Source: Candidatus Binatota bacterium (GTDB taxonomy: Bacteria > Desulfobacterota > Binatia > UBA1149 > CAITLU01). From it: a stretch of 64,000 nt of DNA. Below the pieces are notes generated by a model that was given only the letters and a program-made list of their open reading frames with translations, was not told the DNA's origin and searched no databases. Below, piece by piece: positions 31,398 through 36,201 of the stretch (positions are counted from its first letter, which is position 1; every line of letters starts with the position of its first letter). Both the position numbers and the translations under genes were made by a program. The stretch is taken from positions 1,161 to 65,160 of the forward strand of contig JAJRWY010000312.1 in the NCBI GenBank assembly GCA_024276575.1. The letters run 5' to 3'.

Positions 31398-31703
31398 ATG
31401 TGGCCTTTCGACAATAGCTTCTATGAGGAAATATCGGCTCGGTTCGAAACTCTGCTCAAGGACGGTGAGGACGCCGGAAATACCAATGATCTGTCGGCTT
31501 TGCTTGCTCCGGTGGATCCTTTCAACCGTTCACCCTTGTTTACACCGGTCGTGAAAGCTCTGGGCGTCGCTGCGTTGGTAGCAATGACCGGGCTTGCCGC
31601 AGCCGGTTTAGTCGTGGCCTTCGTTGCTTTCCTCGGTCTTTACTTCTTGCTTACCGAAGTATTCGGTTACGAGCTTTCTCTGGCACCGCTGCAACCGATG
31701 TAG
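31398..31703 (+). CDS. Small hypothetical membrane protein (C-terminal TM helix)
   Basis: 101-aa ORF 5 nt after the preceding gene, with a hydrophobic C-terminus ALGVAALVAMTGLAAAGLVVAFVAFLGLYFLL. Confidence 0.45.
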   Translation: MWPFDNSFYEEISARFETLLKDGEDAGNTNDLSALLAPVDPFNRSPLFTPVVKALGVAALVAMTGLAAAGLVVAFVAFLGLYFLLTEVFGYELSLAPLQPM

Positions 31704-32332
31704 ATTGCGTCTTGCCGTACGGCGAGACCGAGTATTAGAGCACAGGCGACGGCTGCCGCATCGCATGCCGCCACCGCGTGCCGCCACTGGCGCAGGTGCT
31801 TGTCGTAGCCACCGGCCTGCCGGCTGCGGTCTGAATAACGCGCGGGGAAATCGAGACCGGATGGTCCGTGATCTTGCGTTCGACGGTGGCTTGGCAAGGC
31901 GCCGTAGTTACGACAATCGCTAAACAGATCAGGAAGCGGTGCCTGTGGATGCACTCCGCAAACGAAACCGCAACCACCGCCATCCGGCTCAAAAGTGTAC
32001 CATACAATCGGTACCGAAGTTTTGCGGGCATGTTCGATTTGGTTCAGATCCGAATGCTCGACTCCCGCTACTATGTAGCAGGCGATAGAAGTGGATGTTT
32101 GTGTAGCTTTGCGACCTCGTCCCCGGAGGCTTTCAATGCCTGGACCATCGCTGCGCGAGGATACGCTGACCCCCGCTGCTCTCAAGTAAAGGGATGCTTG
32201 TTCCACGCCGCGAGGGTGCCCGAGCAGTACCACTGTCGCCGCCAGTAACTTTCCCTGGCCTTCCGCACCGATGCCGGGGATGATGATCTGTCGCGCATAG
32301 CGTTCAATGCTCTCATCATCGAGAGTAGCCAT
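31667..32332 (-). CDS. Degenerate ThiF/MoeB-like (E1-like) protein that retains the N-terminal RYxRQ...GxEGQxKL motif but lacks the GxGxxG loop; possible pseudogene or accessory subunit
   Basis: The N-terminus ERYARQIIIPGIGAEGQGKLLAATVVLLG matches E1 enzymes. It is followed by HPRGVEQASLYLRAAGV instead of GxGxxG...ALYLAGAGV. The downstream sequence is diverged, AT-richer, and has a poor RBS. Confidence 0.4.
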   Translation of the reverse strand: MATLDDESIERYARQIIIPGIGAEGQGKLLAATVVLLGHPRGVEQASLYLRAAGVSVSSRSDGPGIESLRGRGRKATQTSTSIACYIVAGVEHSDLNQIEHARKTSVPIVWYTFEPDGGGCGFVCGVHPQAPLPDLFSDCRNYGALPSHRRTQDHGPSGLDFPARYSDRSRQAGGYDKHLRQWRHAVAACDAAAVACALILGLAVRQDAIYIGCSGARESS

Positions 32333-32359: not shown

Positions 32360-32599
32360 TCATTCTATGACGTTCTTCTCTATCGGCTCGACAGTGACGC
32401 CTTGCTCGGCGATCCATCGTACGGCCCGGTCAATCTCGTCTTGCTCACCTTCGAGTTCGAGAGCCATGATGCCCACATGCTCAGAAATCGAAGCACCGCG
32501 TATATTGGTGACCACGCGGAACTTGTGTCCGACGTGGTAAACGATCGGCTCCTTTATCTTCTCTTGGCTGTAGGTCAGGTAGAAACGTTGAAGTGTCAT
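32360..32599 (-). CDS. Stand-alone NIL-domain protein (MetN C-terminal-like ferredoxin-fold domain)
   Basis: 79 aa with the TNIRGASISEHVGIMALELEG motif characteristic of NIL domains. The ATG overlaps the cysM-like stop (ATGA) with a GAGGAG SD. Confidence 0.6.
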   Translation of the reverse strand: MTLQRFYLTYSQEKIKEPIVYHVGHKFRVVTNIRGASISEHVGIMALELEGEQDEIDRAVRWIAEQGVTVEPIEKNVIE

Positions 32600-33579
32600 T
32601 GGTTCTCCTCCGCGGCGGCGAGTTCATGGCGGTCGCGCCAGCCGGTCCACAGATTCGTAGATAAGTAGCGGTCGCCAAAATCGGGTAGCACTACCACCAC
32701 GCACCCGGATTGCAACTCCGCAGCCACTTCCAGTGCTGCGACTACCGCGGCACCGGAGGACTGTCCGACCAGCAGACCTTCTTTGGCGGCCAACTCGTAA
32801 ACCATCTCGTAAGCGGCATCGGTAGCCACACCCACCTTGCGGTCGAAGCCGGATTCGTCGTAAATACCCGGCACGATCGAGCTGCCCATGTGCTTCAAGC
32901 CTTCTATCCCGTGGAAGGCGTCGTCGGGCTCCACGGCTATTATTTCGACCTCAGGCTTGCGCGATCTCAAGTAGCGGCCGCAGCCCATTACGGTTCCGCT
33001 GGTACCGATCGTGGCGAGAAAGTGAGAGACGCGGCCGGCAGTTTGCTCCCAGATCTCGGGTCCTGTGGTCAGGAAGTGGGCCTCCGGATTGGCCGGGTTG
33101 TAGTACTGGTCGGGTTTGAAGTACGCGTCGGGATCGGCGTCGAACATCTTTTTGGCCAAGACGATGGAGCCGTCGGACCCTTCCATCGGATCGGACTCGA
33201 CTATTTCGGCGCCGTAAGCCGCAATCACCCGCAATCGTTCGCGTGAGGCGTTGGCGGGTATCACTAATTTTACCGGATATCCCAGCGCAGCGCCGATCAT
33301 CGCCAGCGCGATGCCGGTGTTGCCGGAAGTAGAATCGAGAATGGTTTTGCCGGGGCGTAAGTGTCCGTCTTCCAATCCACGACGCACCATGTTCCAGGCC
33401 GGGCGGTCTTTGACCGAACCGCCGGGGTTGAAGCCCTCGACTTTGGCGTACACTTCTACACCGCCGGCCAAGTGCGGGGTTACACCTCGCAGTTGGAGCA
33501 ACGGTGTGTCGCCGATCAAGTCGAGTATGCCTGTGGCCTCCGCCTCATTAAGGGTCGGCTGTTGGCGAGTCCGGTGCAC
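32596..33579 (-). CDS. cysM: Cysteine synthase-family PLP enzyme (CysK/CysM type; candidate thiocarboxylate-dependent O-phosphoserine sulfhydrylase)
   Basis: ILDLIGDTPLLQL and the PLP-Lys motif KVEGFNPGGSVKDR, plus the glycine-rich TSGNTG loop. The GTG start overlaps the tail of the upstream carrier gene. Confidence 0.85.
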   Translation of the reverse strand: MHRTRQQPTLNEAEATGILDLIGDTPLLQLRGVTPHLAGGVEVYAKVEGFNPGGSVKDRPAWNMVRRGLEDGHLRPGKTILDSTSGNTGIALAMIGAALGYPVKLVIPANASRERLRVIAAYGAEIVESDPMEGSDGSIVLAKKMFDADPDAYFKPDQYYNPANPEAHFLTTGPEIWEQTAGRVSHFLATIGTSGTVMGCGRYLRSRKPEVEIIAVEPDDAFHGIEGLKHMGSSIVPGIYDESGFDRKVGVATDAAYEMVYELAAKEGLLVGQSSGAAVVAALEVAAELQSGCVVVVLPDFGDRYLSTNLWTGWRDRHELAAAEENQ

Positions 33580-33854
33580 GCGCCGCCGGCGATAGCGGGA
33601 ACGATGGAGATTTCGTCGCCGTCTTTGACGGCGGACTCCAGGTCATCAAGAAAGCGAATGTCATCGCCGTTCACGTAAACATTTACGAAACGCCGTACTG
33701 AACCGTCGCGTTCGCAGATGCGCTCCTTGAGGCCTGGATGGGCTGCCTCGACGCTGTCGAGAACCGCGGCCACGGTCGAGCCTTCTGCGTCGACGGCTTC
33801 GTTGCCGCCTGTAAACTTTCTCAGGGGTGTGGGGATTCTTACCCGGACTGCCAT
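33516..33854 (-). CDS. MoaD/ThiS-family sulfur-carrier protein (CysO/MetO-like) with a 21-residue extension after the Gly-Gly
   Basis: MAVRVRIPTPLRKFTGG...VNGDDIRFLDDLESAVKDGDEISIVPAIAGG (GG at residues 90-91), followed in-frame by ACTGLANSRPLMRRRPQAYST before the stop. Strong SD TAGGAGGAAC upstream of the ATG at 33852-33854. Confidence 0.7.
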   Translation of the reverse strand: MAVRVRIPTPLRKFTGGNEAVDAEGSTVAAVLDSVEAAHPGLKERICERDGSVRRFVNVYVNGDDIRFLDDLESAVKDGDEISIVPAIAGGACTGLANSRPLMRRRPQAYST

Positions 33855-33891: not shown

Positions 33892-35184
33892 TCACGAACC
33901 GGTGGCCGGAGAAGCAATCGTGGAAGCCTGATCGCCGCCGGCTGTCTTGCCGGCTTCAAGACGCTCGTAAAGACGGTCGAATTCGTCGAGACGTGCTGCG
34001 ATATCGTGGGTGACCGGAACCGAATCACGAACCGCCTCGAGGGTCTTGTAGCCGTTGCCGGTAATAGAGATGACGATCGACTCATCTCGGGGTATGCGGC
34101 CTTGCTCTATGAGTTTCTTGGTAACCGCCACCGTGGTGCCCCCGGCCGGCTCGGTAAACACACCTTCCGTACGCGCCAGTAGTTTGATTGCTTCCACTAT
34201 TTCTTCGTCGCTAGCTGATTCACCCCATCCTCCGGAATCCCTGACCGCTCCGAGAACGTAATAGCCGTCGGCCGGGTTGCCGATCGCGATCGACTTGGCG
34301 ATGGTATGAGGCTTTACCGGTTCGATAAGGTCGGTTCCCCGGTGAAGGGCGTTGACGACCGGAGCGCAACCGGCGGCTTGCGCGGAGTATATCTTGAATC
34401 CGCTCTGCTCGACCAAGCCTACCCGCTGCAGCTCTTCAAAGGACTTGGCGACTTTGGGCAAGATGGTGCCGCCGGCGGTAGGAACGACGATGTGTTGGGG
34501 GAGCTTCCAGCCGAGTTGTTCGGCCACTTCGAATCCGTAAGTTTTGGCTCCTTCGGTGTAAAAAGGCCGCAGGTTGATGTTTGCGAAAGCCCAGCCGTAC
34601 TTGTCCGCGATCTCGGTGCACAGGCGGTTAACGTCGTCATAATTGCCGGAGATCGCGACCGGGACCGGGTTGTATATGGCCGATCCCACCACCTTGCCTT
34701 GTTCGAGGTTGTCGGGGATGAAGATGAAGCACCGCAGGCCGGCGCGTGCTGCATGGGCGGAAACGGAATTGGCTAGGTTGCCGGTAGAGGCGCATGCGAC
34801 GGTTTCGAAGCCGAACTCGACCGCTTTGGTCAGCGCGACCGAGACTACGCGGTCCTTGTAGGAGAAGGTCGGGTGGTTGACCGAATCGTCTTTTACGTAG
34901 AGTTCCGAGACGCCGAGCACTTCTGCCAAGCGATCGGCTTTGAGCAAGGGAGTAAAACCTGAATACAGGCCGATACGCGGCTCGGACTCCACCGGAAGCA
35001 ACTCGCGATATCTCCACAGGTTGGGTGGCCTCGCTTCAATGGTCTTGCGATCGACCGCAGCCGATATCTTGTCATAGTCGTATTCTACTTCGAGGGGGCC
35101 AAAGCAGTATTCACAGACGTGGTAGGGCTTGAGTTCGTAAGCCTCGCCACATTCACGGCACTTGAGGCCTTTTACAAAAGACAT
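33892..35184 (-). CDS. Threonine synthase-family PLP enzyme with an N-terminal zinc ribbon (ThrC, or a MetM-like O-phosphohomoserine-dependent homocysteine synthase)
   Basis: N-terminus CRECGE...CEYCFG and the PLP-Lys motif HPTFSYKDR. AAGGAGAT SD before the ATG at 35182-35184. The track ORF's 47-aa N-terminal extension was rejected. Confidence 0.8.
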   Translation of the reverse strand: MSFVKGLKCRECGEAYELKPYHVCEYCFGPLEVEYDYDKISAAVDRKTIEARPPNLWRYRELLPVESEPRIGLYSGFTPLLKADRLAEVLGVSELYVKDDSVNHPTFSYKDRVVSVALTKAVEFGFETVACASTGNLANSVSAHAARAGLRCFIFIPDNLEQGKVVGSAIYNPVPVAISGNYDDVNRLCTEIADKYGWAFANINLRPFYTEGAKTYGFEVAEQLGWKLPQHIVVPTAGGTILPKVAKSFEELQRVGLVEQSGFKIYSAQAAGCAPVVNALHRGTDLIEPVKPHTIAKSIAIGNPADGYYVLGAVRDSGGWGESASDEEIVEAIKLLARTEGVFTEPAGGTTVAVTKKLIEQGRIPRDESIVISITGNGYKTLEAVRDSVPVTHDIAARLDEFDRLYERLEAGKTAGGDQASTIASPATGS

Positions 35185-35198
35185 GGTAGTTATCTCCT

Positions 35199-35957
35199 TC
35201 AGCGGTCGATGCCGGGCGCTGCAGCGGCGGGCTCGTAACCGCGGGGTCGTGAACGGGTTTCCCCCGAGCGGGAGCATCGCGGGCAAGCGGGATCCCTGGG
35301 GAAATATACATGGCGCCAACGGCACCCTGACAATTCATAGATATTCATGCGGCCGGGACACAGGCTTTTGTCTCCACCAAGGTAACGAAGCGCGTCTTGC
35401 GCTTGTGCGGTTCCCACCAAGCCGGCCACTGGTGCGAGAATGCCCATAGCTGAACAGCCGCCGTCGGCTTCCTGCGGGTGGTCGTCGGGGAAAGCGCATG
35501 CGAGGCAGGCCGACACGCCCGGCACCACGGTCATCCATTGGCCGGTGGTTCTGATCACACCGCCGTAACAGAAAGCGGTGCCGGTCGAGACTGCAACGGC
35601 GTTTATCATGAATTTCGTGGCCGGGTCGTCACAAGCGTCGATCACGAAATCATGAGAGGAAACGAGGCTCTCGGCGTTGCCGGTGTTCAACGTATCTTCG
35701 ATGGGACGAATTTCAGTGGTAACAGGGCCGCCGGCGGATGCGGCTAGAGCCTTACGCGCGGCCTCGGCCTTGGGTGCTCCGACGTCGCTGTCGCCGAACA
35801 AGACCTGCCGCTGCAGGTTCGAAAGCTCGATGCGGTCGGGGTCGATAATCGTGAGTTTGGCAACTCCGGCGCCCACGAGCATGCGCGCGGCAGCGCAACC
35901 GAGGGCGCCGACGCCCACCAACAGAACCGAATCTTTTGTTTGCTGCTGCAAGTACAA
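35199..35957 (-). CDS. ThiF/MoeB/MoeZ-type E1-like sulfur-carrier-protein adenylyltransferase
   Basis: VLLVGVGALGCAAARMLVGAGV (GxGxxG), DPDRIELSNLQRQ, and zinc motifs CxxC...CxxC. Only a TTG start at 35955-35957 is available, and it abuts the riboswitch terminator U-tract. Confidence 0.8.
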   Translation of the reverse strand: MYLQQQTKDSVLLVGVGALGCAAARMLVGAGVAKLTIIDPDRIELSNLQRQVLFGDSDVGAPKAEAARKALAASAGGPVTTEIRPIEDTLNTGNAESLVSSHDFVIDACDDPATKFMINAVAVSTGTAFCYGGVIRTTGQWMTVVPGVSACLACAFPDDHPQEADGGCSAMGILAPVAGLVGTAQAQDALRYLGGDKSLCPGRMNIYELSGCRWRHVYFPRDPACPRCSRSGETRSRPRGYEPAAAAPGIDR

Positions 35958-35989
35958 AAAAACCTCTTCCAGGCGGGATAAGGAAGAGG
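35956..35989 (-). terminator. Intrinsic terminator hairpin forming the expression platform of the SAM-I riboswitch
   Basis: On the minus strand, CCUCUUCC-UUAUCCCGCCU-GGAAGAGG followed by UUUUUUU. The 3' stem arm GGAAGAGG doubles as a putative SD for the thiF-like TTG. Confidence 0.7.
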
Positions 35990-36011
35990 TACTGGGTCGC
36001 GGCGACAGGCC

Positions 36012-36168
36012 TCTCCTTATCTTTCACCCTCTTTGCATTTGCGTGAACTCGATTACGCGCTCACCGCAACGCTAAGGTGCGGGACTTAGCACCTGCCGCC
36101 CGCTTGCGCAGGCCGGTTGCTGTGGCTTCACAGGGCCCATTCCCTCCGCCACTCTGAATAAGGAACGG
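36012..36168 (-). promoter_or_regulatory. SAM-I (S-box) riboswitch aptamer
   Basis: The minus-strand RNA reads UUCCUUAUUCAGAGUGGCGGAGGGAAUGGGCCCUGUGAAGCCACAGCAACC...CAGGUGCUAAGUCCCGCA...GAAAGAUAAGGAGAGG. This matches the S-box consensus CUUAUCAAGAGNGGYGGAGGGAYUGGCCCNAUGAARCCCRGCAACC...GGUGCYAAUUCCNGC...GAGAUAAG, including P1 pairing CUUAU/AUAAG. Confidence 0.8.
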
Positions 36169-36169
36169 A

Positions 36170-36201
36170 AAGGGTAGCGGCACTAGGCCTCACTGTCAAA
36201 A
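36170..36201 (-). promoter_or_regulatory. Putative sigma-70-type promoter driving the riboswitch and sulfur-carrier operon
   Basis: On the minus strand, TTGACA, then a 17-nt spacer, then TACCCT about 7 nt upstream of the riboswitch 5' end. Confidence 0.4.

What the first reader, a model, noticed from the sequence alone, without database searches (positions are those of the whole stretch)
35956..36168. SAM-I (S-box) riboswitch with terminator platform read directly from the sequence
The minus-strand transcript matches the S-box consensus. It has P1 (CUUAU...AUAAG), the GAGUGGCGGAGGGA junction, a P3 hairpin (GGGCCCUGUGAAGCCACAGCAACC), and GGUGCUAAGUCCCGC in P4. Immediately downstream is a GC-rich hairpin (CCUCUUCC/GGAAGAGG) followed by U7. 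The 3' stem arm GGAAGAGG is also the only SD-like sequence before the E1 gene's TTG, which suggests combined transcriptional and translational control. Minor: GC-rich deltaproteobacterial-type genomes are not where S-box elements are most common.
Basis: seen in the sequence. Interest (0 to 1): 0.7.

Follow-up and report, generated by a model that had tools for sequence, protein, structure and literature searches.

The report
SAM-I riboswitch before sulfur-carrier methionine operon
A textbook S-adenosylmethionine-sensing RNA switch (SAM-I / S-box) with a terminator sits in front of a six-gene sulfur-amino-acid operon of an uncultured Binatia-type bacterium. It is real and conserved in relatives, but it is an ordinary new member of a very well known class.

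Summary
Rfam model RF00162 (SAM-I) matches window 36164..36014 on the minus strand over the full model, at 75.8 bits against a gathering score of 44.4; it is the only Rfam hit in the window. The aptamer folds as the P1-P4 four-way junction. Helices and pseudoknot show covariation across 66 related leaders.

Downstream lies the hairpin CCUCUUCC/GGAAGAGG followed by U7. Its 5' arm can instead pair with the P1 3' strand, which gives the classical SAM-off termination switch. A conserved TTGACA-N17-TAnnnT promoter sits just upstream.

In the nine closest leaders, the last two U of the U-tract plus G form a TTG in frame with the E1 gene. In one relative this is the only possible start codon. GGAAGAGG lies 5 nt upstream of it.

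The regulated operon is ThiF-like E1, ThrC-like (MetM-type candidate), CysO-like carrier, CysM-like, a NIL-domain protein and an E1-like partner. This is a plausible thiocarboxylate-dependent homocysteine/cysteine pathway, and SAM-riboswitch control of metM has already been reported in Streptomyces.

Verdict: confirmed, and a new member of a known kind. Interest is low to moderate. Ligand binding, termination and translation control remain untested.

The parts
36194..36199 (-). Predicted promoter -35 box, TTGACA
   Evidence: Read from the sequence. A TTGACA or TTGACT box at the equivalent place, 16-18 nt before a TAnnnT hexamer, recurs upstream of the aptamer in most related loci. It was not reported by the consensus scan because the -10 has only 3 of 6 matches.
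36171..36176 (-). Predicted promoter -10 box, TACCCT (17-nt spacer). It ends 6 nt before the aptamer, so the transcript would start about at P1.
   Evidence: The same 6-7 nt distance is seen in L004, L005, L006, L008 and L036. This is inference; no transcript data are available.
36014..36164 (-). SAM-I (S-box) aptamer, full length
   Evidence: RF00162 at 75.8 bits against a gathering score of 44.4, E 5.5e-16, model 1-108. 96.7 bits with the clade model R1. The MFE of the aptamer alone is the four-way junction, -61.7 kcal/mol.
36157..36164 (-). P1 5' strand, UCCUUAUU
   Evidence: It pairs with 36014-36021 (one search lists each pair). P1 is paired in 97.9% of cells, and 4 of its 8 pairs show changes on both sides across 65 distinct sequences.
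36014..36021 (-). P1 3' strand, GAUAAGGA. This is the switching strand, shared between P1 and the antiterminator.
36122..36152 (-). P2: GUGGC/GCCAC and GGG/CCC, with the conserved GGAGGGA...UGAAG internal loop and the pseudoknot loop
   Evidence: Helix 13-17/39-43 is 100% paired, with 3 pairs changed on both sides.
36088..36121 (-). P3 (GCAACC...GGUGC), containing the conserved ligand-pocket bulge
   Evidence: The distal P3 helix has 6 of 6 pairs changed on both sides.
36136..36139 (-). Pseudoknot 5' partner, UGGG, in the P2 loop
   Evidence: It pairs with CCCG at 36083-36080 (G-C, G-C, G-C, U.G). The two G-C pairs are invariant in 65 sequences. The third position shows A-U, U-A, G-C and C-G in different leaders.
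36080..36083 (-). Pseudoknot 3' partner, CCCG, in J3/4
36025..36079 (-). P4, extended. It has a 42-nt insertion relative to the Rfam model and folds as one long imperfect hairpin.
   Evidence: insertion of 42. (fold of 36085-36025, -23.1 kcal/mol). The base of P4 covaries (helix 7). L003 has a similar expansion and the other leaders do not.
36010..36021 (-). Antiterminator 5' strand, GAUAAGGAGAGG (the P1 3' strand plus 4 nt)
   Evidence: The MFE of the isolated platform pairs it with 35989-35977, at -24.9 kcal/mol against -14.2 for the terminator alone. In the full leader the antiterminator state is -85.5 and the P1 + terminator state is -81.2.
35977..35989 (-). Antiterminator 3' strand, CCUCUUCCUUAUC. 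Its first 8 nt are the terminator 5' arm.
   Evidence: The strand covaries in relatives (GGCAAGG with CCUUGCC in L005, L006 and L008).
35963..35989 (-). Terminator hairpin: CCUCUUCC, 11-nt loop, GGAAGAGG
   Evidence: -14.2 kcal/mol. A hairpin ending at a T-run is found in 50 of 66 leaders. The Binataceae clade has CCCUCGUCC/GGACGAGGG, a compensatory U-A to G-C change.
35956..35962 (-). U7 tract of the terminator. Its last two U are the first two bases of the E1 start codon.
   Evidence: only 3 T7 runs in the window.
35963..35970 (-). Shine-Dalgarno-like GGAAGAGG, identical to the terminator 3' arm, 5 nt before the TTG
   Evidence: Read from the sequence. The other operon genes use GAAGGAGA, AGGAGG and GGAGGAGA. 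It is fully paired when P1 is enforced. The SD function is inferred.
35199..35957 (-). ThiF/MoeB-family E1 gene (252 aa), start TTG at 35957-35955. The protein lacks the N-terminal RYxRQ helix.
   Evidence: Pfam ThiF 1.9e-60, matching from profile position 20. The in-frame TTG is conserved. The exact 252-aa product is in the public collection and the 250-aa alternative is not.
33892..35184 (-). ThrC-like PLP enzyme (430 aa) with an N-terminal four-Cys ribbon; candidate MetM-type homocysteine synthase
   Evidence: PALP 5.5e-64. NCBIfam threonine synthase PRK08197, 312.6 bits against a cut-off of 303. PDB ThrC chains align only from residue ~55. The MetM role is inferred from context and from literature (10.1101/2024.10.14.618325; PMC12172450).
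33516..33854 (-). ThiS/MoaD/CysO-like sulfur-carrier protein. Its GG (residues 90-91) is followed by a 21-aa tail.
   Evidence: Pfam ThiS 7.2e-19. The closest solved chains are 4n6e_B and M. tuberculosis CysO 3dwg_C.
32596..33579 (-). CysM/CysK-like PLP enzyme
   Evidence: TIGR01138 cysM 3.6e-108, below its cut-off. PALP 1.3e-69.
32360..32599 (-). NIL-domain small protein. Its start overlaps the cysM-like stop.
   Evidence: Pfam NIL 6e-15.
31667..32332 (-). Last operon ORF (221 aa). Only its N-terminal ~55 residues resemble the MoeB/ThiF N-terminus (ERYARQ...).
   Evidence: E 4e-9, profile N-terminus only. Conserved after NIL in 50 loci.

Best explanation
This is a genuine SAM-I (S-box) riboswitch that turns off a sulfur-amino-acid operon when S-adenosylmethionine is plentiful.

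Transcription probably starts at a conserved TTGACA-N17-TACCCT promoter, right at P1. When SAM binds the four-way-junction aptamer (36164-36014), P1 is held closed. The downstream segment CCUCUUCC...GGAAGAGG-U7 is then free to fold as an intrinsic terminator, and RNA polymerase stops at 35962-35956, which is at the first codon of the E1 gene. When SAM is scarce, the P1 3' strand (GAUAAGGAGAGG) pairs instead with CCUCUUCCUUAUC. The terminator cannot form, and the six-gene operon is transcribed: E1, ThrC-like/MetM candidate, CysO-like carrier, CysM-like, NIL and the E1-like partner.

The same hairpin most likely acts a second time. Its 3' arm, GGAAGAGG, is the ribosome-binding site, and the E1 start codon TTG is built from the end of the U-tract. 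Any SAM-bound read-through transcript is therefore also blocked for translation initiation.

Shown here: family membership by score, structure covariation, alternative pairings, conservation of the promoter, terminator and in-frame TTG, and gene content. Inferred: SAM binding, actual termination, the translational layer, and the MetM-type function of the ThrC-like enzyme.

My confidence is about 0.85-0.9 for the core SAM-off termination switch and about 0.55 for the added translational layer.
For: RF00162 scores 75.8 bits against a gathering score of 44.4 over the full model, and all highly conserved consensus positions match. The aptamer alone folds as P1-P4.

Across 66 leaders (65 distinct), 93.6% of cells are paired against 85.7% in shuffles and 39-47% in slid controls. 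17 pairs have changes on both sides, and 0 of 500 shuffles reach any of the measures. The pseudoknot is 4 bp in the window, and its third pair takes four Watson-Crick types across relatives.

For the switch, the platform MFE is the antiterminator (-24.9 kcal/mol), against -14.2 for the terminator alone. In the full leader, the P1-enforced state gives junction + terminator at -81.2, and the antiterminator-enforced state gives -85.5 with no terminator.

For conservation, the aptamer lies on the same strand upstream of the operon in 65 of 80 related loci. 11 of 13 were confirmed with Rfam itself at 70.9-91.3 bits. A hairpin plus T-run follows in 50 of 66 leaders, and the antiterminator is the MFE in 36. 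The TTGACA promoter box is conserved. T7 runs are rare, with 3 in the window.

For the dual layer, the U-tract TTG is in frame with E1 in WIN, L002-L008 and L036, even though the N-terminal segments are divergent and of different lengths. In L004 an in-frame TAA lies four codons upstream, and no other ATG/GTG/TTG occurs before the GxGxxG motif. The public gene call uses this TTG. GGAAGAGG is fully paired when P1 is enforced.

For context, the genes are ThiF, ThrC-like, ThiS/CysO-like, CysM-like and NIL. ThrC-like MetM with the sulfur carrier MetO makes homocysteine from O-phosphohomoserine (10.1101/2024.10.14.618325, citing Hasebe 2024). S. albulus metM has an upstream SAM riboswitch (PMC12172450).
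Against: There are no experimental data for this uncultured lineage: no ligand binding, no transcript ends, and no knowledge of how its RNA polymerase treats such terminators.

The unconstrained MFE of the whole leader is not the aptamer fold, and its z-score is only -2.2. This is usual for SAM-I, but it means thermodynamics alone does not prove the switch. The energy gap between the two states is small, at 4 kcal/mol.

In 14 of the 50 leaders with a terminator, the antiterminator is not the MFE. About 12-16 leaders lack a clear terminator, so other platforms exist in the family.

Against the translational layer: in the antiterminator-enforced ensemble, GGAAGAGG is predicted to pair with the released P1 5' strand (36163-36156), and seven of its eight bases (all but A35967) are less than 10% unpaired. 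A free SD in the ON state is therefore not predicted by the model. GGAAGAGG is only a moderate match to the AGGAGG consensus. The same arm sequence is conserved in loci where E1 starts further downstream with its own SD (for example L016), so its conservation is not explained by SD function alone.
Confidence: 0.85

Rival explanations
1. The riboswitch acts by transcription termination only. The overlap of the terminator 3' arm with the ribosome-binding site, and of the U-tract with the start codon, is just compaction of the leader with no separate regulatory effect.
For: The arm CCUCUUCC/GGAAGAGG is equally conserved in relatives whose E1 gene starts 25-60 nt further downstream with its own SD (L016, L015, L028). 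Its conservation therefore does not need an SD role. The thermodynamic model shows the SD-like bases paired in both states. If termination is efficient, few SAM-bound full-length transcripts exist to be regulated.
Against: In the nine closest leaders nothing but U residues lies between GGAAGAGG and the in-frame TTG, and L004 has no other start codon. The ribosome must therefore load on the terminator arm, and a formed hairpin necessarily competes with it. Intrinsic terminators are rarely fully efficient (general knowledge).
Confidence: 0.3
2. The riboswitch acts by translation control only. In this organism the hairpin plus U-run does not terminate transcription; it merely sequesters the SD and start region when SAM is bound.
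For: The hairpin contains the only SD-like sequence, and the start codon abuts it. The stem is short (8-9 bp, -14 kcal/mol) with a large 11-nt loop. That is weaker than typical strong terminators, which is why the consensus scan missed it. About a dozen related leaders have no clear T-run.
Against: A run of 5-9 T directly after the stem is kept in about 50 of 66 leaders in genomes of ~60% G+C, including those where the start codon lies well downstream and the T-run has no coding or spacer role. T7 occurs only 3 times in the 64-kb window. The antiterminator geometry (P1 3' strand against terminator 5' arm) is the classical S-box attenuation layout.
Confidence: 0.08
3. The aptamer is a decayed or re-purposed SAM-I look-alike: non-functional, or specific for another ligand such as SAH or a SAM analogue.
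For: Ligand binding was not and cannot be tested here. The aptamer has an unusual 42-nt P4 expansion.
Against: All highly conserved core positions match the consensus. Strong purifying and compensatory patterns hold across 65 distinct sequences. P4 length is variable in the family, and the expansion is distal to the junction. The regulated genes belong to methionine/cysteine synthesis.
Confidence: 0.03

Closest known systems
SAM-I (S-box) riboswitch, Rfam RF00162, clan CL00012 (for example the Bacillus subtilis yitJ/metI leaders and the Thermoanaerobacter tengcongensis metF aptamer; examples recalled from memory)
   Same: It shares the full model match, the P1-P4 four-way junction, the P2-loop/J3-4 pseudoknot and the conserved core nucleotides. 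It also shares the OFF-switch layout, in which the P1 3' strand alternates between P1 and an antiterminator that competes with an intrinsic terminator. It lies upstream of sulfur/methionine genes.
   Different: The host is an uncultured Binatia-type lineage with ~60% G+C. P4 carries a 42-nt expansion. The regulated operon is a sulfur-carrier-protein pathway rather than the classical metE/metK/metI genes. In this clade the start codon of the first gene is fused to the terminator U-tract.
SAM riboswitch upstream of metM (with the carrier gene metO) in Streptomyces albulus. Source: Hasebe et al. 2024, AEM e01247-24, known here only through PMC12172450 and bioRxiv 10.1101/2024.10.14.618325.
   Same: SAM-responsive RNA control of a ThrC-like enzyme encoded next to a ThiS/MoaD-type sulfur carrier. 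That is the thiocarboxylate route from O-phosphohomoserine to homocysteine.
   Different: I could not read the primary paper, so the riboswitch class and platform in Streptomyces were not compared. Here the E1 activator, a CysM-like enzyme, a NIL protein and an E1-like partner lie in the same riboswitch-controlled operon. Orthology of the ThrC-like protein to MetM was not tested.
Riboswitches that act on both transcription and translation through one expression platform (terminator stems that include the Shine-Dalgarno sequence; dual-acting lysC and thiM/btuB-type switches). Recalled from the literature, not tested here.
   Same: One ligand-dependent helix hides the ribosome-binding site and also stops or destabilises the transcript.
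   Different: Here the second layer is only inferred from sequence geometry and conservation. The overlap is extreme, with the start codon made from the last two U of the terminator tract.
M. tuberculosis CysO-CysM (with Mec and MoeZ) protein-thiocarboxylate cysteine pathway
   Same: The carrier is closest to CysO chains 3dwg_C and 4n6e_B. It is followed by a CysM-like PLP enzyme, and a ThiF/MoeB-type E1 is present.
   Different: That pathway is not known to me to be riboswitch-controlled in mycobacteria. Here it is combined with a ThrC-like enzyme and a NIL protein. No JAMM/Mec protease gene was identified in the operon.

Membership tests
SAM-I riboswitch (RF00162) | Covariance-model score at or above the curated gathering threshold over the whole model | tested here: met
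   75.8 bits against 44.4, E 5.5e-16, model positions 1-108 of 108. It is the best hit within clan CL00012, since overlapping clan hits are resolved by the tool.
SAM-I riboswitch (RF00162) | Four-way junction P1-P4 supported by compensatory changes | tested here: met
   The MFE of the aptamer alone is the junction. Across 65 distinct sequences 93.6% of cells are paired, 17 pairs change on both sides, 0 of 500 shuffles reach this, and slid controls give 39-47% paired. The alignment was fitted to a model built from these sequences, which favours the structure somewhat.
SAM-I riboswitch (RF00162) | Pseudoknot between the P2 terminal loop and J3/4 | tested here: met
   In the window, UGGG (36139-36136) pairs with CCCG (36083-36080). 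The two G-C pairs are invariant. The third pair appears as A-U, U-A, G-C and C-G in different leaders, and as U.U in 19.
SAM-I riboswitch (RF00162) | Conserved core nucleotides: P1 UUAU/AUAA, J1/2 AGAG, the GGAGGGA...UGAAG internal loop of P2, the GCAACC bulge and GGUGC of P3 | tested here: met
   All upper-case consensus positions are identical in the alignment. These columns are invariant in the 12-sequence alignment.
SAM-I riboswitch (RF00162) | Selective binding of S-adenosylmethionine | not testable with these tools
   Needs in-line probing, ITC or equilibrium dialysis with SAM and SAH.
SAM-I riboswitch (RF00162) | Expression platform with mutually exclusive terminator and antiterminator that share the P1 3' strand | tested here: met
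   for the window. A hairpin plus T-run is found in 50 of 66 leaders, and the antiterminator is the MFE in 36.
SAM-I riboswitch (RF00162) | Location in the 5' leader of methionine/cysteine/SAM metabolism or transport genes | tested here: met
   The operon is ThiF E1, ThrC-like, CysO-like carrier, CysM-like and NIL. The same arrangement is seen in 65 related loci.
Intrinsic (Rho-independent) terminator | G+C-rich stem-loop directly followed by a U-tract | tested here: met
   An 8-9 bp stem with 5 G-C pairs, an 11-nt loop and U7. The loop is longer than typical, so the consensus scan missed it.
Intrinsic (Rho-independent) terminator | Actual transcript release at the U-tract | not testable with these tools
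   Needs in vitro transcription or 3'-end mapping.
MetM/MetO thiocarboxylate-dependent homocysteine pathway (Hasebe 2024) | ThrC-family PLP enzyme encoded next to a ThiS/MoaD-type sulfur carrier | tested here: met
   ThrC-like at 35184-33892, followed 35 nt later by a ThiS-family gene. The order is conserved in 77 of 80 loci.
MetM/MetO thiocarboxylate-dependent homocysteine pathway (Hasebe 2024) | Orthology to S. albulus MetM and MetO | not tested
   The reference sequences and the primary paper were not available. NCBIfam still names the enzyme threonine synthase, and the GapMind preprint notes this as a frequent misannotation of MetM.
MetM/MetO thiocarboxylate-dependent homocysteine pathway (Hasebe 2024) | Homocysteine formation from O-phosphohomoserine and carrier thiocarboxylate | not testable with these tools
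   Needs an enzyme assay or complementation of a methionine auxotroph.

The most novel reading that the evidence does not exclude
In this Binatia clade one short hairpin would be at once terminator, SD sequestrator and start-codon carrier, because the E1 start TTG is made from the last two U of the U-tract. SAM would then shut the operon at two levels through a single helix. The operon it controls would encode a complete riboswitch-regulated protein-thiocarboxylate route to both homocysteine and cysteine. That route would be run by an E1 whose N-terminal (arginine-finger-type) segment is supplied by a separate subunit.
Probability: 0.4. Interest if true: 0.4.

Novelty: new member of a known kind. 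Interest (0 to 1): 0.25.

Why it matters
For riboswitch biology this adds little. SAM-I is among the best understood classes, and this copy would be picked up by any Rfam annotation run. Its value lies in annotation. The riboswitch marks the downstream genes as SAM/methionine-repressed. That argues that the enzyme annotated as 'threonine synthase' in Binatia and related uncultured lineages is a MetM-type homocysteine synthase working with a CysO-like sulfur carrier, its E1 and a CysM-like enzyme. This fills a methionine and cysteine biosynthesis step in metabolic reconstructions of an abundant soil and sediment lineage. The conserved fusion of terminator, ribosome-binding site and start codon is also a compact natural template for studying, or engineering, two-level control by one hairpin.

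Tried and rejected
1. Unconstrained folding of the whole 236-nt leader did not give the aptamer fold (z = -2.2). I treated this as uninformative, because SAM-I needs ligand and tertiary contacts. I used domain-wise and constrained folds instead.

2. The consensus promoter/terminator scan found neither the promoter (the -10 has 3 of 6 matches) nor the terminator (11-nt loop). Both were recovered by reading the sequence and by conservation.

3. A 'longest ORF' rule for finding the E1 frame gave wrong frames in this G+C-rich DNA. I replaced it with tblastn-anchored frames.

4. A naive contiguous count of pseudoknot pairs undercounted, because many leaders have a U.U at the third position. I replaced it with per-position pair tables.

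5. The Hasebe 2024 primary paper is not held, so its content is cited only second-hand.

6. An exact look-up of the ThrC-like product on contigs found nothing. The cluster look-up did confirm the gene calls.

7. I considered whether the ThrC-like gene is a true threonine synthase. I rejected this as less likely, because it is SAM-repressed and embedded among sulfur-carrier genes, but it is not disproved.

8. I considered that the CysM-like gene might start at the TTG overlapping the carrier's stop codon. I rejected this because homologues align from residues 13-18, upstream of that TTG.
Full report
**1. Observation**

A scan of the whole 64-kb window against all 4227 Rfam families gave one hit at gathering level. 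That hit is RF00162 (SAM riboswitch, S-box leader) at 36164..36014 on the minus strand. It scores 75.8 bits against a gathering score of 44.4, with E 5.5e-16, and covers model positions 1-108 of 108. Every highly conserved consensus position is matched. The only large departures are a 42-nt insertion in the P4 loop and a slightly longer P3.

GGGCCC...GCCAC belongs to P2. P3 begins at GCAACC. GGUGC closes P3. UAAGUCCCG is J3/4. The element and its coordinates are nevertheless right.

**2. Aptamer structure**

Folded alone, the 151-nt aptamer gives the P1/P2/P3/P4 four-way junction as its minimum-free-energy structure, at -61.7 kcal/mol. The P4 expansion folds as one long imperfect hairpin. The P2 loop UGGG (36139-36136) can pair with CCCG in J3/4 (36083-36080), which is the pseudoknot expected for the class.

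**3. Relatives**

The ThrC-like protein encoded downstream has hundreds of close homologues in metagenome-assembled genomes. Where named, these are mostly called Candidatus Binatia, Deltaproteobacteria or Myxococcales bacterium. A scan of one genome per species returned 80 loci with 68-87% identical proteins, again mostly Binatia/Binataceae.

- Rfam itself found RF00162 on the same strand, 800-1000 nt upstream of the thrC-like gene, in 11 of the 13 loci tested, at 70.9-91.3 bits.
- A clade-specific covariance model built from these hits found the aptamer in 65 of the 80 loci.
- Four of the other 15 loci are cut off too close to the gene to tell.
- In four distant loci (Latescibacterota and Tepidisphaeraceae bins) the aptamer sits directly before the thrC-like gene, with no E1 gene in between.

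On the 66-sequence alignment (65 distinct rows), 93.6% of cells form standard pairs. The comparison figures are 85.7% in column shuffles and 39-47% when partners are slid. Seventeen pairs show changes on both sides, and no shuffle out of 500 reaches any of the five measures. The third pseudoknot pair appears as A-U, U-A, G-C and C-G in different leaders. The alignment was fitted to a model derived from the same sequences. That inflates the figures somewhat, but the slid controls leave no doubt.

**4. Expression platform**

Fifty-one nucleotides after the aptamer lies CCUCUUCC (35989-35982), an 11-nt loop, GGAAGAGG (35970-35963), and then U7 (35962-35956). T7 occurs only three times on both strands of the window.

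The isolated platform folds not as the terminator (-14.2 kcal/mol) but as an antiterminator. In that fold GAUAAGGAGAGG (36021-36010, the P1 3' strand plus four bases) pairs with CCUCUUCCUUAUC (35989-35977), at -24.9 kcal/mol.

For the full leader there are two states:

- Enforcing P1 gives junction plus terminator, at -81.2 kcal/mol.
- Enforcing the antiterminator core gives -85.5 kcal/mol, with no terminator.

These are two mutually exclusive, nearly isoenergetic states, selected by whether P1 is held shut. That is the classical S-box attenuation logic.

Among the 66 leaders, 50 have a hairpin ending at a T-run. In 36 the antiterminator is the MFE of the free platform. The switching strands covary: GAUAAGG/CCUUAUC in the window against GGCAAGG/CCUUGCC in L005, L006 and L008. 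The terminator stem shows a compensatory U-A to G-C change between clades, from CCUCUUCC/GGAAGAGG to CCCUCGUCC/GGACGAGGG.

**5. Promoter**

TTGACA (36199-36194), a 17-nt spacer and TACCCT (36176-36171) end 6 nt before the aptamer. A TTGACA/TTGACT box with a TAnnnT hexamer 16-18 nt downstream recurs at the equivalent place in most related loci. In the closest ones the -10-to-aptamer distance is the same 6-7 nt. This is a prediction from conservation only.

**6. Translational layer**

The ORF of the ThiF-family E1 opens with the TTG at 35957-35955, which is the last two U of the U-tract plus G. Only U residues separate it from GGAAGAGG, with a spacing of 5 nt. The other operon genes use GAAGGAGA, AGGAGG and GGAGGAGA as ribosome-binding sites.

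I anchored the E1 frame by tblastn. The equivalent U-tract TTG is in frame, with no intervening stop, in all nine leaders of the closest group (window, L002-L008, L036; E1 47-52% identical). This holds even though the 12-20 codons between the TTG and the GxGxxG motif differ in sequence and length.

In L004 an in-frame TAA lies four codons upstream of the TTG, and no other ATG/GTG/TTG occurs before the nucleotide-binding motif. That TTG must therefore be the start. The public protein collection holds exactly the 252-aa product of this start, and not the 250-aa alternative from the second TTG.

When P1 is enforced, all eight bases of GGAAGAGG are paired in the ensemble.

Two caveats apply:

- In the antiterminator-enforced ensemble the model pairs GGAAGAGG with the released P1 5' strand (36163-36156). 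A free SD in the ON state is therefore not predicted. That long-range helix is weak and may not form in vivo.
- The same arm sequence is conserved in relatives whose E1 starts further downstream with its own SD (for example L016). SD function is therefore not the only constraint on it.

**7. What is regulated**

The operon runs from 35957 to 31667 on the minus strand:

| Gene | Coordinates | Key evidence |
|---|---|---|
| ThiF/MoeB-type E1, 252 aa | 35957-35199 | Pfam ThiF 1.9e-60 |
| ThrC-like PLP enzyme with an N-terminal four-Cys ribbon, 430 aa | 35184-33892 | NCBIfam 'threonine synthase' PRK08197 |
| ThiS/MoaD-type carrier | 33854-33516 | Closest to CysO chains 3dwg_C and 4n6e_B |
| CysM-like PLP enzyme | 33579-32596 | NCBIfam TIGR01138 cysM (below cut-off) and Pfam PALP hits |
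| NIL-domain protein | 32599-32360 | Pfam NIL hit |
| 221-aa ORF | 32332-31667 | Only its first ~55 residues resemble the MoeB/ThiF N-terminus |

The gene order is conserved across the related loci.

According to the GapMind 2026 preprint (10.1101/2024.10.14.618325), Hasebe et al. 2024 showed that a ThrC homologue, MetM, makes homocysteine from O-phosphohomoserine and the thiocarboxylate of the carrier MetO. The same preprint notes that MetM is often misannotated as threonine synthase. PMC12172450 states that S. albulus metM has an upstream SAM riboswitch.

A SAM-repressed ThrC-like gene next to a sulfur carrier and its E1 is therefore best read as a MetM/MetO-type pathway, here joined to a CysO/CysM-type cysteine step. 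This assignment is inference. I could not read the primary paper or compare with the MetM sequence.

**8. Comparison and novelty**

All testable defining features of SAM-I are met. Only ligand binding cannot be tested here. The element is an ordinary new member of the class, in a lineage where it turns out to be widespread. RF00162 has been reported, for example, in Oleidesulfovibrio alaskensis (PMC11124144).

Three features are mildly unusual: the P4 expansion, the fusion of terminator, SD and start codon in one clade, and the regulated pathway. None would surprise a specialist. I score interest at 0.25, and the novelty class is 'new member of a known kind'.

**9. Side observation**

The E1 of the window matches the ThiF profile only from position 20, so it lacks the N-terminal RYxRQ helix. 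The last ORF of the operon carries just such an N-terminus.

Across the related loci the pattern is mutually exclusive:

- 50 loci have a short E1 plus a separate ORF6-like gene.
- 11 loci have the ORF6-like segment fused to the E1 N-terminus and no separate gene.
- No locus has both.

This suggests a split or heteromeric E1 and deserves its own follow-up.

Noticed in passing
window 35957..35199 (E1) and 32332..31667 (last ORF); loci L002-L080: The E1 lacks the N-terminal RYxRQ helix of MoeB/ThiF, and the last operon ORF carries only that kind of N-terminus (ERYARQIIIPGIGAEGQGKLL...). Across relatives the pattern is mutually exclusive: 50 loci have a short E1 plus a separate ORF, 11 have the segment fused to E1 and no separate ORF, and none have both. 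This suggests a split or heterodimeric E1 in which the partner supplies the N-terminal (arginine-finger-type) segment.
   Followed up: partly
window 33581..33516 (tail of the ThiS/CysO-like ORF 33854..33516): The sulfur-carrier ORF does not stop after its Gly-Gly (residues 90-91). It continues for 21 codons (ACTGLANSRPLMRRRPQAYST), overlapping the start of the cysM-like gene (33579) in another frame. Some relatives align into the tail. The carrier would need C-terminal processing by a JAMM/Mec-type protease, but no such gene was seen in the operon.
   Followed up: partly
window 35184..~35030: The ThrC-like enzyme has an extra N-terminal ~50-residue segment with four cysteines (KCRECGE...HVCEYCF, zinc-ribbon-like). 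Solved threonine synthases align only from residue ~55.
   Followed up: no
window 32599..32360: A stand-alone NIL-domain protein, translationally coupled to the cysM-like gene (ATGA overlap), is part of the SAM-controlled operon. It is conserved after cysM in 64 of 80 loci. Its role in the pathway is unknown.
   Followed up: partly
L061, L062, L064, L065, L072, L076 and other Binataceae loci, within ~70 nt upstream of the aptamer: A conserved palindrome of the form CTGACCG-N3-5-GGTCGG lies just upstream of the -35 box in many Binataceae leaders. It is a possible protein-binding site adding a second input to the promoter, and it is absent from the window.
   Followed up: no
L014, L017, L021, L022, L026, L027, L031, L039, L040, L059: These loci have the E1 and thrC-like genes and enough upstream sequence, but no SAM-I aptamer at E <= 0.01 with the clade model (L014 and L017 are also negative with Rfam). 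Regulation there must differ.
   Followed up: no
L045, L050 (Latescibacterota), L074, L077 (Tepidisphaeraceae): In these distant relatives the SAM-I aptamer lies directly upstream of the thrC-like gene with no E1 gene in between. The riboswitch-thrC-like association therefore extends beyond Binatia and is independent of the E1 position.
   Followed up: partly
window 36079..36025; L003 4049..4195: P4 of the aptamer carries a 42-nt expansion that folds as a long hairpin. L003 has a comparable expansion, and the other 64 leaders have a short P4.
   Followed up: partly
window 36163..36156 with 35970..35963: In the antiterminated state, the thermodynamic model pairs the released P1 5' strand with the SD-like terminator 3' arm. 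This follows from the similarity between the P1 5' strand and the terminator 5' arm. Whether it matters in vivo is unknown.
   Followed up: partly
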